Origin: an uncultured Ruminococcus sp.
Lineage (GTDB): Bacteria > Bacillota > Clostridia > Oscillospirales > Acutalibacteraceae
Length of the DNA stretch: 56,439 bases
Reading direction: 5' to 3'
NCBI GenBank assembly: GCA_902761025.1
Contig: CACWIU010000002.1
Location: 9,517-65,955, forward strand
Part shown: piece by piece, positions 18,782-21,376 of the stretch
Numbering within the stretch: position 1 is the first letter of the stretch
Layout: every line of letters begins with the position of its first letter
Position numbers and translations under genes: made by a program
Notes under the pieces: model-generated
What the model saw: the letters and a program-made list of their open reading frames with translations, nothing else
Told to the model about the DNA's origin: nothing
Database searches by the model: none

Positions 18782-21376
18782 GTGAGGAAAATAGTAATTG
18801 GCATTCTCGCTCATGTGGATTCGGGAAAAACAACCTTGTCGGAAGCCTTGATGTATTGTTCGGGCAATATTTCTAAACTTGGAAGAGTAGATCACGGCAG
18901 CTCTTTTTTAGATAATTTTACTATGGAGCGTGAACGCGGTATTACTATTTTTTCAAAACAAGCCGTTTTTAATTACGGCAATACCGAATTTACACTGCTG
19001 GATACTCCCGGGCATGTGGATTTTTCGGCAGAAGCAGAACGCACTCTGCAAGTTTTGGATTACGCTGTTTTAGTTATTAACGGAGCCGAGGGAGTTCAAA
19101 GTCACACGTATACATTGTGGAAACTTTTGCAAAAGTATGACATTCCTTGTTTTATATTCGTTAATAAAACAGACCTTGCAGGAGCTGACAAGAATTTTGT
19201 TATGGCTCAAGTTACTTCAAAGCTTAGCGAGGCTTGCGTAAGTTTTGATATTGAAGACAGGGATTCTCTATGTGAAAACATTGCTTTATGCGATGAAGAT
19301 TTACTTGAACAGTATGACACAAATAATAATATCGAACTTGAAGATATTATAAACGCCGTTGCCGACAGAAAAATTTTTCCGTGCTGTTTCGGTTCGGCAT
19401 TGAAACTTATAGGAATTGAGCATTTTTTAAAAATACTTGAAAAATATACTAAAACTAAAAATTTTCCCAATGATTTCGGCGGAAGAGTATATAAAATCTC
19501 AACGGACGAACAGGGCAGTCGTTTGACTTTTCTTAAAGTTACGGGCGGAAGACTTAAAGTAAAAGATATTCTTACAAGCGAAAAAAATTGTAATGACGAA
19601 AAAGTAAATCAAATACGCATTTATTCCGGTGAAAAATTCACTCAGGTTGACGAAGTATCAGCCGGCACAATATGTGCTGTTACGGGAATAACATTTGCAA
19701 ACTGCGGCGACGGACTGGGCTTTGAAAAAAATACAGTTTTTCCCCTTTTATCCCCCGTACTTACATACACAGTCGAACCGCCCGAAAGTATTGACGCACA
19801 TACGCTCTTGCCAAAAATGAAACTTCTTGAAGCCGAAGAACCGCAGCTTAATGTCGTTTGGAATGACAAACTGAATGAAATACAAGTGCGGCTTATGGGA
19901 GATATTCAGCTTGAAATATTTCAGCGTATGATTTTTGAGCGTTTTAATATCGCCGTAACTTTTGGCAAGGGAAAAATTATATACAAAGAAACAATTTCCG
20001 AACAGGTAGAGGGCGTAGGACATTTTGAACCTCTTCGGCATTATGCGGAAGTTCATCTTCTTATGAAACCTACCAAACCAAACAGCGGCGTAATAATTAA
20101 TTCGAACTGCCGCGAAGATATTCTTGATAAAAACTGGCAAAGGCTTATATTAACGCACTTATACGAAAAAACACATATCGGTGTTTTGACTGGGTCGCCG
20201 ATTACCGACATTGAAATAACTCTTATTTCGGGAAAATCTCACGCAAAGCATACCGAGGGCGGCGACTTTCGACAAGCGACTTATCGTGCTGTAAGGCAAG
20301 GTCTACGCAGTACAAAAAGCGTGCTGTTAGAACCTTATTATGATTTTACTTTAGAAGTTCCCGAAGAAAACATTGGTAAAGCTATGAATGATATTCAGCT
20401 TATGCACGGTTCTTTCGAACCATTCGAGCATAACGGAGAATTTTGTATTCTTAGCGGCACTGCTCCTGTGTCAACTATGAGCAGTTATTCAAGCGAAGTT
20501 GTCAGATACACACACGGCAGAGGAAAGCTTGAATGTCGTTTCAAGGGATACGAACCTTGTCACAATTCCGAAGAAGTCATACAACAAATCGGCTACAATG
20601 CGGACAGCGATACGGAAAATCCGTGCGATTCTGTTTTTTGTTCTCATGGTGTGGGGCATATAGTTAAATGGGATAAAGTCCCCGAATATATGCACTTGCC
20701 TTATTACGATGAGTATAACAATTCAGAAGATACTGTTGCCATGAATGACCGTGAAAGACTGTACTCGATGTGCAGAACTCAAAGTGATATTTTTGCACTT
20801 GACAATGAACTTATGCAAATTTTTGAACAGACATACGGAGCTGTAAAAAAGCGTTCAGTCGCTGAAAGCCGCTCTTTCGGAAAGTCGTCAAGCGAAGCCA
20901 CAAATTACAAGCGTGGAAAAAGTCAGCAATATTCAGGCATTGAGTACTTGCTTGTTGACGGTTACAACGTAATATTTTCTTGGGAAAAATTAAAGCAGAC
21001 AGCAAAAGAAAATATTGACGCTGCCCGAAATATGCTGATTAATATACTTTGCAATTATCAGGGATATAAAAAGTGCGAGCTTATTTTGGTGTTTGACGCC
21101 TACAAAGTAAAAGGAAATGTCCGAGAAGTAGAAAAAATCGGCAATATAAGCGTAGTCTATACCAAAGAAGCGGAAACAGCGGATATGTACATTGAAAAGA
21201 CATCGCATAAACTCGCAAAAAATAACAGAGTTAGAGTTGTAACGTCAGACGGCTTAGAGCAGTTGATAATTTTAGGCGGCGGAGCATTGCGAGTATCTTC
21301 ACAGGCATTTTTAACGGAAGTGGAGCAGGCAGAAAAAGAAATCATGTCAATAGTATCCTCTTCATCAGGACAGTAA
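18782..21376 (+). CDS. Tet(M)/EF-G-like translational GTPase fused to a C-terminal YacP/Rae1-type NYN ribonuclease domain
   Basis: G1 AHVDSGKT, G2 RGITI, G3 DTPGH, G4 NKTD. The first ~640 aa are collinear with Tet(M)-type ribosomal protection proteins. The last ~155 aa (from ~20940) read [38 protein letters not shown], matching YacP-like NYN motifs. GTG 18782 gives an N-terminus [13 protein letters not shown] spaced like Tet(M). Confidence 0.85.
   Translation: [864 protein letters not shown]

What the first reader, a model, noticed from the sequence alone, without database searches (positions are those of the whole stretch)
18782..21376. In-frame fusion of a Tet(M)/EF-G-like translational GTPase with a YacP/Rae1-type NYN ribonuclease
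Seen in sequence: one uninterrupted frame of 864 aa.
- The first ~640 aa carry G1 AHVDSGKT, G2 RGITI, G3 DTPGH and G4 NKTD. They are collinear, domain by domain, with Tet(M)/Tet(O)-type ribosomal protection proteins and EF-G, for example [35 protein letters not shown] and the domain-IV-like [19 protein letters not shown].
- A ~70-aa linker follows ([12 protein letters not shown]...[18 protein letters not shown]).
- The last ~155 aa read [12 protein letters not shown] / [12 protein letters not shown] / [12 protein letters not shown] / [13 protein letters not shown]. These are the four acidic motifs of the YacP-like NYN (PIN-like) fold.

Established knowledge: B. subtilis YacP/Rae1 is a ribosome-dependent endoribonuclease that cuts mRNA in the A site. 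Tet(M)/EF-G-type factors dock at the GTPase centre and reach into the A site.

Inference: the fusion would physically deliver an A-site nuclease by a factor mimic. That suggests GTP-gated, ribosome-targeted RNA cleavage, for example stalled-ribosome surveillance or stress- or phage-triggered translation shutdown. I know of no experimentally characterised member of this architecture.

The gene sits directly downstream of an IS-disrupted membrane-protein gene, so its native transcription may be perturbed.
Basis: partly seen in the sequence, partly recalled or inferred. Interest (0 to 1): 0.85.

Follow-up and report, generated by a model that had tools for sequence, protein, structure and literature searches.

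The report
EF-G-like GTPase fused to Rae1 nuclease
This gene really does encode a ribosome-docking GTPase joined by a long flexible tether to a Rae1-type RNA-cutting domain; the fusion was already noted in 2015 and 2017 and is common in gut Clostridia, but nobody has tested what it does, and it could help show how Rae1 nucleases act on stalled ribosomes.

Summary
Window 18782-21376 (+) is one uninterrupted 864-aa ORF. It carries GTP_EFTU, EF-G domains II-V and a C-terminal NYN_YacP domain, all above Pfam thresholds. G1-G5 are intact, and the four Rae1 catalytic Asp are intact.

The novelty claim is overstated. The same architecture was published by Atkinson 2015 and Matelska 2017, and the window's protein is 53% identical end-to-end to the published R. 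albus 7 member.

The family is much larger than the 'ten species' reported:
- One fusion-specific 9-mer hits at least 600 species genomes.
- 470 clusters (50% identity) match the linker+NYN query at E<=1e-30.
- Members are Clostridia, and the gene is always stand-alone with no conserved neighbour.
- I found no real plasmid, phage or defence-system link.

It is not a Tet(M)-type resistance protein. It scores far below the NCBIfam cut-off, and the Tet(M) YYSP loop is replaced by an invariant H.[9 protein letters not shown].

The 'linker' has two parts: a conserved ~45-aa Cys/His extension, then a disordered tether (median 84 aa, never below 64).

Best model (inferred): a GTPase-docked, tethered Rae1 that cuts mRNA on stalled or collided ribosomes. 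No functional study was found.

The parts
18782..21376 (+). Complete CDS of the Tet-like/EF-G-like GTPase-NYN fusion (864 aa, GTG start, stop included)
   Evidence: The identical 864-aa protein (P0001) is called on an independent contig.
18791..19453 (+). G domain (aa 4-224). G1 AHVDSGKT, G2 RGITI, G3 DTPGH (catalytic His78), G4 NKTD and G5 GSAL are all intact.
   Evidence: Pfam GTP_EFTU E=9e-49. The motifs are near-invariant in 70 diverse members.
19475..19969 (+). EF-G domains II (aa 232-312) and III (aa 325-396)
   Evidence: Pfam EF-G_D2 and EFG_III, above cut-offs.
19970..20311 (+). EF-G domain IV (aa 397-510)
   Evidence: Pfam EFG_IV E=1e-16.
20231..20272 (+). Domain IV tip loop [14 protein letters not shown] (aa 484-497); family signature G[KR]AH.[9 protein letters not shown]. 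His487 aligns with the loop-II His of EF-G. Tet(M) Y506-Y507-S508-P509 are replaced by S-H-A-K.
   Evidence: Residue alignments to Tet(M) 3J9Y and S. aureus EF-G 2XEX. The motif is present in 77 of 80 genome loci and near-invariant in the representatives.
20321..20569 (+). EF-G domain V (aa 514-596)
   Evidence: Pfam EFG_C E=3e-20.
20549..20695 (+). Family-specific conserved extension after domain V (aa ~590-638): GYEPCHN...IGYD...D..[13 protein letters not shown].W....YMH. C593, C620, H622 and H638 are (near-)invariant, making a candidate Zn site.
   Evidence: Conservation analyses. AF2 predicts a short helix, two strands and a helix at moderate confidence. The peptide SVFCSHGAG retrieves at least 600 genomes, 598 of them confirmed.
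20696..20941 (+). Flexible tether (aa ~639-720), low-complexity and polar
   Evidence: AF2 pLDDT<50 for residues 638-716. Conservation is low and the region is gap-rich. Family tether length: minimum 64, median 84, IQR 80-87, n=262.
20795..20842 (+). Conserved helix motif inside the tether (aa 672-687, [16 protein letters not shown]; family L.ELxxIFexTYG)
   Evidence: Conservation. Predicted helical, but at low confidence.
20942..21355 (+). NYN_YacP / Rae1-type nuclease domain (aa 721-858) with D726, D772, D801 and D823. It ends about 10 aa after the Rae1-aligned core, so the C-terminal tail of B. subtilis Rae1 (residues 136-170) has no counterpart.
   Evidence: Pfam NYN_YacP E=6e-49. PDB 5MQ8/5MQ9 E=8e-25. 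43% identity to B. subtilis Rae1 residues 1-135.
16549..18154 (+). Context, not part of the system: IS element (DDE transposase ORF 16654-18081) with 25-bp terminal inverted repeats and a 5-bp TACTT target duplication. It is inserted after codon 17 of the upstream 215-aa membrane-protein gene (16502-16553 + 18155-18750).

Best explanation
The protein is a self-targeting version of the ribosome-associated endoribonuclease Rae1.

Proposed mechanism (each step inferred unless a call is cited under evidence):
1. The N-terminal five-domain, EF-G/Tet(M)-like GTPase docks in its GTP form at the ribosomal factor-binding site and places domain IV in the decoding centre. This reports a ribosome that is stalled with an accessible A site, or one trapped in a pre-translocation state behind a stalled ribosome.
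2. The C-terminal NYN domain hangs on a flexible tether of about 80 residues. It cuts mRNA outside the A site, most likely at the mRNA entry channel or inter-ribosome segment, which is where free Rae1 cuts (12 nt upstream of the stalled A-site codon).
3. GTP hydrolysis at the sarcin-ricin loop then releases the factor.
4. The truncated mRNA lets tmRNA/SmpB rescue the ribosomes.

Shown here: the domain architecture, intact catalytic motifs in both modules, family-wide conservation, the tether, and the stand-alone chromosomal context.

Inferred: ribosome binding, the substrate (mRNA), the site of cleavage, gating by GTP, and the link to rescue.
For: Both modules are significant and look catalytically intact:
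- Pfam matches.
- Four catalytic Asp aligned to solved Rae1.
- G1-G5 intact.

The fusion is under long-term selection as a unit:
- All of the top 120 homologues carry the full architecture.
- 470 clusters at the 50%-identity level match the linker+NYN query at E<=1e-30, and 70 of the best 150 are full-length fusions.
- At least 600 species genomes match a single fusion-specific peptide.
- Both modules sit in one ORF in about 70 complete loci.

The domain IV tip is near-invariant (77 of 80 loci). It retains the EF-G loop-II His and lacks the Tet(M) YYSP loop. This points to a conserved contact in the decoding centre that is not the tetracycline site.

The tether is predicted disordered and is never shorter than 64 aa, with a median of 84. 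That fits a nuclease acting at a distance from the A site.

The fused NYN lacks the C-terminal tail of Rae1 in most members. This is compatible with the GTPase taking over ribosome targeting.

The gene is a stand-alone chromosomal gene with housekeeping neighbours, as expected of a translation factor.

Published Rae1 biology fits: translation-dependent cleavage 12 nt upstream of the stalled A-site codon (PMC12407103), and Rae1-dependent tmRNA tagging on collided ribosomes, including erythromycin-induced ones (PMC13622287).
Against: - No experiment exists on any family member.
- Ribosome binding, GTPase activity and nuclease activity are all inferred from homology.
- The AF2 model has low global confidence (pTM 0.45) and gives no information on where NYN sits relative to the body.
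- Which ribosome is recognised (lead or trailing) and where the cut falls cannot be decided from sequence.
- Whether these genomes also keep a free Rae1 could not be tested here. 'Replacement' versus 'specialised paralogue' therefore stays open.
- Some members keep a longer Rae1-like tail, so loss of the tail is not universal.
Confidence: 0.5

Rival explanations
1. It is a tetracycline (or other A-site antibiotic) ribosomal protection protein whose extra RNase domain adds a new twist to resistance. This was Atkinson's 2015 suggestion and is implied by the PGAP name 'TetM/TetW/TetO/TetS family tetracycline resistance ribosomal protection protein'.
For: - The best NCBIfam and PDB matches for the GTPase part are Tet RPPs (tet_protect 426.8 bits; Tet(M) 3J9Y 255 bits, collinear in one stretch).
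- RefSeq names some members as Tet RPPs.
- Rae1-dependent rescue responds to antibiotic-induced collisions, so a role in antibiotic tolerance is conceivable.
Against: - The score is far below every curated Tet cut-off: 426.8 against 775, 288.9 against 1100, 247.8 against 1420.
- EF-G scores almost as well as Tet(M) in the PDB search (240 against 255 bits).
- The Tet(M) loop III residues Y506-Y507-S508-P509 that dislodge tetracycline are replaced by S/A-H-x-K, and the replacement is invariant across the family.
- The Tet(M) C-terminal helix region is replaced by a different conserved Cys/His extension.
- The gene is chromosomal and broadly distributed in Clostridia. The only two fused PLSDB records are large, non-mobilizable and chromosome-like.
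Confidence: 0.08
2. One reading: the factor mimic carries the NYN nuclease into the A site itself, and the A-site codon is cut, in the manner of RelE.
For: - Architecture.
- The original 2017 docking of Rae1 into the A site, as cited.
Against: [quoted passage not shown]
- Domain IV of EF-G/Tet(M)-type factors fills the 30S A site (established structures such as 3J9Y and 4V5F). This leaves no room for a 16-kDa NYN domain at the same time.
- The tether is always at least 64 aa, more than would be needed for a neighbouring site.
Confidence: 0.1
3. The target is stable RNA rather than mRNA. The GTPase docks on ribosomes or subunits and the NYN domain cuts rRNA or tRNA. The purpose would be ribosome inactivation or turnover (for example in stationary phase or sporulation) or rRNA maturation, as first proposed for YacP from its mrnC-rlmB operon.
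For: - NYN/PIN nucleases include rRNA- and tRNA-processing enzymes (PMC5499597).
- spoVA sporulation genes lie next to the gene in a minority of loci (7 of 80).
- Canonical rae1 sits in an rRNA-processing operon.
Against: - The only characterised member of this NYN subfamily, Rae1 (43% identical, same catalytic residues), cuts mRNA in a translation-dependent way.
- The spoVA linkage is weak and not conserved.
- The fusion gene is not in the mrnC-rlmB-sigH context in any of about 90 loci.
Confidence: 0.15
4. It is a toxin-like or anti-phage effector that shuts down translation on a trigger.
For: A ribosome-targeted nuclease could in principle be toxic. In one A. rectalis locus a BrnT/CopG toxin-antitoxin pair lies just upstream.
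Against: - No PADLOC match.
- No conserved partner, antitoxin or immunity gene; the commonest neighbour family is in 8 of 80 loci.
- Neighbours are housekeeping genes.
- Only 2 of 2.9 million viral contigs carry it.
- The 'Bacteriophage sp.' record examined (MT835563.1) is bacterial DNA.
Confidence: 0.04

Closest known systems
Tet-like GTPase / NYN_YacP fusion proteins of Clostridia, noted by Atkinson 2015 (BMC Genomics, Additional file 8) and Matelska et al. 2017 (NAR)
   Same: Identical architecture from end to end. The window's protein is 53% identical over 856 aa to the published R. albus 7 protein YP_004106010.1. It shares the same domain IV signature, extension and NYN motifs with all ten published sequences.
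   Different: Nothing essential: this is another member. New here: the family's true size (at least 600 species), its invariant signatures, the tether anatomy, the absence of any conserved neighbour, and its placement against the revised Rae1 mechanism.
Rae1/YacP of Bacillus subtilis (PDB 5MQ8/5MQ9), ribosome-associated endoribonuclease
   Same: Same NYN_YacP fold family. 43% identity over 135 aa, with all four catalytic Asp conserved.
   Different: Rae1 is a free 170-aa protein with a C-terminal tail, encoded in the cysS-mrnC-rlmB-rae1-sigH cluster. Here the domain is the C-terminus of an 864-aa GTPase, lacks the tail, and sits in an unrelated genomic context.
Tet(M)/Tet(O) ribosomal protection proteins (PDB 3J9Y, 4V6V)
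   Same: Five-domain translational GTPase, collinear in a single alignment stretch. Best sequence match for the N-terminal 600 aa.
   Different: - Below all curated cut-offs.
- Loop III YYSP is absent.
- Different C-terminal extension.
- Carries a nuclease.
- Chromosomal and not mobile.
Elongation factor G
   Same: Same domain order, intact GTPase motifs, and the loop-II His of domain IV retained (H487). Best structural matches by Foldseek.
   Different: Fails the EF-G equivalog cut-off (307.6 against 659.4). It aligns to EF-G only in separate stretches, with weak similarity across the region between the G-domain core and domain II. Domain IV loop I differs ([12 protein letters not shown]).
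Collision- or stall-linked nucleases recruited by other means: E. coli SmrB, yeast Cue2 / C. elegans NONU-1, B. subtilis MutS2 (ATPase plus SMR domain); also Hbs1-Dom34
   Same: Same logic of coupling a ribosome-state sensor to an mRNA nuclease or rescue factor. MutS2 is a precedent for an NTPase sensor fused to a nuclease-type domain (literature cited).
   Different: Unrelated folds (SMR against NYN; ABC/MutS ATPase or Hbs1 against an EF-G-like GTPase). The analogy is functional only and is untested here.

Membership tests
Published Tet-like/NYN_YacP fusion family (Atkinson 2015; Matelska 2017) | N-terminal Tet-like/EF-G-like translational GTPase with domains G, II, III, IV and V | tested here: met
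   Pfam; NCBIfam best hit tet_protect.
Published Tet-like/NYN_YacP fusion family (Atkinson 2015; Matelska 2017) | C-terminal NYN_YacP domain in the same polypeptide | tested here: met
   Pfam NYN_YacP 166.7 bits against cut-off 24.6, within a single ORF.
Published Tet-like/NYN_YacP fusion family (Atkinson 2015; Matelska 2017) | Full-length similarity to a published member | tested here: met
   53% identity over 856 aa to R. albus 7 YP_004106010.1.
NYN_YacP / Rae1 nucleases | Profile match above the curated threshold, and the four catalytic Asp | tested here: met
   D726/D772/D801/D823 correspond to Rae1 D7/D53/D81/D104.
NYN_YacP / Rae1 nucleases | Free single-domain protein of about 170 aa encoded in the mrnC-rlmB-rae1-sigH cluster | tested here: not met
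   Fused, lacks the tail, and sits in a different context.
NYN_YacP / Rae1 nucleases | Translation-dependent mRNA cleavage upstream of stalled ribosomes | not testable with these tools
   Requires biochemistry or genetics.
Tetracycline ribosomal protection proteins (Tet(M)/Tet(O)/Tet(W)...) | Score above the NCBIfam tet_protect equivalog cut-off | tested here: not met
   426.8 bits against 775; subfamily models 288.9 against 1100 and 247.8 against 1420.
Tetracycline ribosomal protection proteins (Tet(M)/Tet(O)/Tet(W)...) | Domain IV loop III Y506-Y507-S508-P509 (Tet(M) numbering), which displaces tetracycline | tested here: not met
   The aligned residues are S486-H487-A488-K489; the family consensus is [AS]-H-x-K.
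Tetracycline ribosomal protection proteins (Tet(M)/Tet(O)/Tet(W)...) | Short C-terminal helix following domain V | tested here: inconclusive
   The alignment to Tet(M) ends at residue 593 (Tet(M) 613). What follows is a different conserved Cys/His extension plus tether and NYN. No structural superposition was possible.
Tetracycline ribosomal protection proteins (Tet(M)/Tet(O)/Tet(W)...) | Confers tetracycline resistance | not testable with these tools
   An MIC assay is needed.
Elongation factor G | Score above the EF-G equivalog cut-off (TIGR00484) | tested here: not met
   307.6 bits against 659.4.
Known anti-phage defence systems (PADLOC-DB 2.0) | Match to any defence-system protein model | tested here: not met
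   No hit for the whole protein or for the linker+NYN part.

The most novel reading that the evidence does not exclude
In many Clostridia the collision- and stall-rescue nuclease Rae1 has been hard-wired to its own EF-G-like GTPase sensor. The factor would recognise a ribosome that cannot translocate, or one with an idle A site, hold on in the GTP state, and swing the tethered NYN domain onto the mRNA between or just downstream of stalled ribosomes. GTP hydrolysis would time its release. If so, it would be the first translational GTPase known to carry an intrinsic nuclease effector. With GDPNP or a His78 mutant, it would also be a natural way to trap a Rae1-type nuclease on the ribosome for cryo-EM. 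The 2026 preprint says this has not been achieved for free Rae1 because its binding is transient.
Probability: 0.4. Interest if true: 0.75.

Novelty: new member of a known kind. Interest (0 to 1): 0.55.

Why it matters
1. Rae1 has only just been placed in bacterial ribosome-collision rescue (2025-2026), and no ribosome-bound structure exists. A natural Rae1 covalently tied to a GTPase that can be locked on the ribosome makes the question 'where and how does Rae1 engage the ribosome?' directly testable.

2. The family is abundant in gut and rumen Clostridia (Ruminococcus, Eubacterium/Agathobacter, Lachnospiraceae, Oscillospiraceae, Acetivibrio thermocellum and others). An unstudied translation-quality-control factor is therefore present in many important commensals and in industrial cellulolytic species.

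3. Members are annotated in RefSeq as 'TetM/TetW/TetO/TetS family tetracycline resistance ribosomal protection protein', although they fail the curated Tet cut-offs and lack the tetracycline-displacing loop. Name-based resistome surveys of gut metagenomes may over-count tetracycline resistance.

Tried and rejected
- **Co-occurrence with a free rae1.** No second NYN gene in the window. No mrnC/rlmB/sigH cluster in any of about 90 fetched loci. Whole genomes cannot be scanned with these tools, so the question stays open.
- **Split or stand-alone versions.** Short representative hits (P0196, P0240, P0261 and others) begin at the NYN core or carry tether-like leaders, and some have low-complexity tails. 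They look like fragments or frameshifted calls of fusion genes. L022 has one NYN domain split by a frameshift. No convincing adjacent two-gene version was seen.
- **Conserved operon or partner.** All-against-all clustering of flanking ORFs in 80 loci found none; the best family is in 8 of 80 loci.
- **Regulatory leader RNA** (tet(M)-style attenuator, T-box and similar). No Rfam match in the window or in 10 loci, apart from one tRNA.
- **Defence, phage or plasmid association.** Rejected. PHROG_6880 'translation elongation factor' matches residues 1-632, but real phage carriage was not found.
- **Extra domains in long variants** (950-1156 aa). None; only longer G-domain inserts or tethers.
- **First genome-scan probe.** A 40-sequence alignment was too diverse. 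A 10-sequence alignment worked.
- **AF2 and Foldseek.** The body matches EF-G/Tet(M) only. The inter-domain geometry is not trustworthy (pTM 0.45), so no inference about NYN placement was drawn.
- **Leroy 2017 (PMC5412759).** Could not be read.

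
Full report
**1.

Window 18782-21376 (+) is a single open frame of 864 codons. Pfam finds GTP_EFTU (residues 4-224), EF-G_D2 (232-312), EFG_III (325-396), EFG_IV (397-510), EFG_C (514-596) and NYN_YacP (723-858). All are above their gathering scores, and the two end domains score E about 1e-48. A G5 motif, GSAL, is also present.

The C-terminal module matches the solved B. subtilis YacP/Rae1 structures 5MQ8/5MQ9 at E=8e-25. It aligns to B. subtilis Rae1 residues 1-135 at 43% identity, with Rae1 D7, D53, D81 and D104 matched by D726, D772, D801 and D823.

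The join is not an artefact:
- The identical 864-aa protein is called on an independent contig from another sample.
- GC content is continuous across the junction.
- The same one-ORF arrangement recurs in about 70 complete loci from other genomes.

**2.

I aligned the query with 70 diverse full-length representatives. The near-invariant features are:
- all G motifs;
- two domain IV segments, G.[12 protein letters not shown] (411-424) and G[KR]AH.[14 protein letters not shown].RQGL (484-508);
- a block of about 45 residues after domain V, GYEPCHN..EV...IGYD...D..[13 protein letters not shown].W....YMH (about 590-638), in which C593, C620, H622 and H638 are (near-)invariant, making a candidate zinc site that I could not test;
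- a short motif L.ELxxIFexTYG (672-687);
- the four NYN acidic motifs.

Between these lie variable, polar stretches. AlphaFold2 (64-sequence alignment; mean pLDDT 71.6, pTM 0.45) folds the EF-G-like domains and the NYN domain with confidence and gives pLDDT<50 for residues 638-716.

So the '~70-aa linker' is really an ordered family-specific extension followed by a tether of about 80 residues. Across 262 family sequences the tether is never shorter than 64 residues (median 84, interquartile range 80-87). The fused NYN ends about 10 residues after the Rae1-aligned core. The 35-residue C-terminal tail of Rae1 is therefore absent here and in most members (median 39 residues after the TSD motif, against 66 in Rae1). 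A few long variants keep more of it.

**3. Not a Tet(M)-type resistance protein, and not EF-G**

The best NCBIfam model is the tet_protect equivalog, but at 426.8 bits against a cut-off of 775. The Tet(M)/(W)/(O)/(S), Tet(M) and Tet(Q) models are missed by even wider margins. The EF-G equivalog is also missed, at 307.6 against 659.4. Against solved structures, Tet(M) (255 bits) and S. aureus EF-G (240 bits) are almost equidistant.

In the residue alignment, Tet(M) Y506-Y507-S508-P509 correspond to S486-H487-A488-K489. From established structural work on Tet(M) and Tet(O), that loop dislodges tetracycline. H487 instead aligns with the loop-II histidine of EF-G. The replacement motif is present in 77 of 80 genome loci.

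Foldseek of the model against the PDB returns only EF-G, mtEF-G2, EF-2 and Tet(M). No solved chain carries an added nuclease.

**4. The family is large, Clostridial and always stand-alone**

Family size:
- All 120 best database hits (66-71% identity) have the full architecture at about 860 aa.
- An exhaustive search with the linker+NYN part finds 2970 representative clusters at E<=1e-3 and 470 at E<=1e-30. Of the best 150, 70 are full-length fusions of 822-1156 aa, and most of the rest are fragments.

Taxa retrieved include Ruminococcus, Eubacterium, Oscillospiraceae, Acutalibacteraceae, Lachnospiraceae (Faecalimonas, Dorea, Agathobacter, Acetatifactor, Herbinix), Caproicibacter, Gemmiger and Butyricicoccus.

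Context:
- Clustering the flanking ORFs of the 80 fetched loci shows no conserved neighbour. The top family is in 8 of 80 loci, and SpoVAD in 7 of 80. The individual contexts are housekeeping genes.
- There is no Rfam leader and no PADLOC match.
- Only 2 hits occur in 2.9 million viral contigs.
- Only two fused copies occur in PLSDB, both on large non-mobilizable chromosome-like records.
- Two 'Bacteriophage sp.' virome records carry the fusion. The one examined, MT835563.1, is flanked by bacterial housekeeping genes.
- Long variants have no additional Pfam domains.

**5. What was already known**

[quoted passage not shown] Its Additional file 8 lists the sequences: R. albus 7, E. eligens, E. 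rectale, B. proteoclasticus, C. cellulolyticum, C. lentocellum, L. phytofermentans, A. thermocellum and D. hafniense. Matelska et al. 2017 note the TetM-like/NYN_YacP fusion in some Clostridia and call its role unclear.

The window's protein is 53% identical over 856 residues to the R. albus 7 entry. The architecture is therefore on record, and this gene is a further member.

Eight full-text searches found no functional study of the fusion.

**6. The Rae1 premise has changed**

Deves et al. [quoted passage not shown] Tetreault et al. 2026 (preprint) show that tmRNA tagging induced by collisions, including erythromycin-induced ones, depends on Rae1. They also note that no ribosome-bound Rae1 structure exists, because binding is transient.

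**7. Most likely mechanism (inference)**

An EF-G/Tet(M)-like body with intact GTPase motifs and an invariant domain IV tip should bind the factor site and insert domain IV into the decoding centre. That site cannot also hold a 16-kDa NYN domain. The obligatory tether of at least 64 residues argues that the nuclease works at a distance.

The new Rae1 cleavage position is the mRNA segment between a stalled ribosome and the ribosome behind it. This segment lies at the mRNA entry channel of the trailing ribosome, which in collided disomes is trapped in a rotated pre-translocation state, the natural substrate of EF-G (established knowledge). My preferred model has two variants:
- The factor binds a ribosome that cannot translocate, and the tethered NYN cuts the mRNA in front of it.
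- The factor binds a stalled ribosome with an idle A site, as Tet(M) does, and the tethered NYN cuts the mRNA in front of it.

In both, GTP hydrolysis releases the factor, and the truncated mRNA feeds tmRNA rescue. I put this at about 0.5 and cannot choose between the two variants.

Rivals:
- a Tet-type protection protein (0.08; fails the membership tests);
- true A-site cleavage (0.1; contradicted by the revised Rae1 data and by sterics);
- rRNA- or tRNA-directed cleavage (0.15; cannot be excluded);
- a toxin or defence role (0.04; no supporting context).

**8. Surroundings**

An IS (DDE transposase ORF 16654-18081) with 25-bp inverted repeats at 16554-16578 and 18125-18149 and a 5-bp TACTT duplication sits after codon 17 of a 215-aa membrane-protein gene. 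That gene's stop is 31 nt upstream of the fusion gene. Precise excision restores the ORF from ATG 16502. This upstream gene is not conserved next to the fusion in relatives. It is not a functional partner, but the insertion could affect read-through transcription in this strain.

**9. Open point**

I could not determine whether fusion-bearing genomes also keep a free rae1. The tools do not allow whole-genome scans of the relevant organisms. This is the most informative next computation.

**10. Verdict**

- As an observation the architecture is already published, so this is a new member of a known but functionally uncharacterised kind.
- Interest is moderate to high (0.55). The family is abundant, tightly conserved and unstudied, and it bears directly on the newly recognised Rae1 collision-rescue pathway. 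It is not a new discovery of architecture.

Noticed in passing
window 16549-18154 (IS); 16502-16553 + 18155-18750 (interrupted gene): A 1596-bp IS (DDE_5/DDE_Tnp_1 transposase, 475 aa) with 25-bp terminal inverted repeats (96% complementary) and a 5-bp TACTT target duplication interrupts a 215-aa predicted membrane-protein gene after codon 17. An independent contig carrying the same fusion gene ends inside the right end of the IS, which fits a repeat that breaks assemblies.
   Followed up: yes
window 20549-20695 (aa 590-638): The family-specific extension after domain V has (near-)invariant C593, C620, H622 and H638 (C-x26-C-x-H-x15-H), a candidate zinc-binding knuckle. AF2 confidence dips at residues 621-624.
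   Followed up: partly
L092 4093-6894 (Agathobacter rectalis NZ_CP143948.1, WP_306784676.1); P0034 and P0105: RefSeq/PGAP names family members 'TetM/TetW/TetO/TetS family tetracycline resistance ribosomal protection protein'. The window's orthologue scores far below the curated NCBIfam Tet cut-offs, and the family lacks the Tet(M) YYSP loop. This is a likely source of over-called tetracycline resistance in gut resistome surveys. Other members are named 'translation factor GTPase family protein' or 'NYN domain-containing protein'.
   Followed up: partly
L022 4252-6746: In one Oscillospiraceae MAG the fusion ORF stops at 6486, just inside the NYN domain, and the rest of the NYN continues in another frame (6456-6746). 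This is either a frameshifted pseudogene or an assembly error.
   Followed up: partly
L093 (MT835563.1, 'UNVERIFIED: Bacteriophage sp.'), fusion gene at 5397-8024: This INPHARED 'phage' record carrying the fusion gene is flanked by bacterial housekeeping genes (NAD(P)H-hydrate dehydratase, DAP epimerase, a LysR regulator, a PG_binding-repeat protein), and none of the ten large ORFs scanned gave a phage-related Pfam hit. It appears to be bacterial DNA from a faecal virome. PHROG_6880 'translation elongation factor' (476 bits to residues 1-632) may have a similar origin.
   Followed up: partly
L002 9402-9845, L003 7401-7844 and 12682-13683, L004 10897-11292; 7 of 80 loci: spoVA sporulation genes (SpoVAC/SpoVAEB, SpoVAD) lie next to the fusion gene in a minority of loci. 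This is probably local synteny among related taxa, but it is the only recurring functional theme in the neighbourhoods.
   Followed up: partly
L007 10971-15323 and L008 6939-11291: In the closest (71% identity) relatives the gene is followed by a PASTA-domain Ser/Thr kinase, and on the opposite strand by a 567-aa protein with a MutS_V ATPase domain. MutS2 is the known collision sensor in B. subtilis. The linkage is not conserved elsewhere and was not analysed further.
   Followed up: no
window 13747-14490, 14587-16464, 21423-22928: Neighbouring genes in the window:
- a BspA-type LRR protein with a type I dockerin, suggesting a cellulosome-bearing Ruminococcus-like host and matching the closest genome hits;
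- a 625-aa fusion of an ODP/flavodiiron-type metallo-beta-lactamase domain, flavodoxin, flavin reductase and a rubredoxin-like domain;
- a 501-aa membrane-anchored RCC1-repeat protein.
   Followed up: no
P0151 (1156 aa), P0157 (1069 aa): Some family members carry an insert of about 300 aa inside the G domain (GTP_EFTU match spans residues 3-520), or a spacer of about 237 aa between domain V and NYN. Neither has a recognisable Pfam domain.
   Followed up: partly
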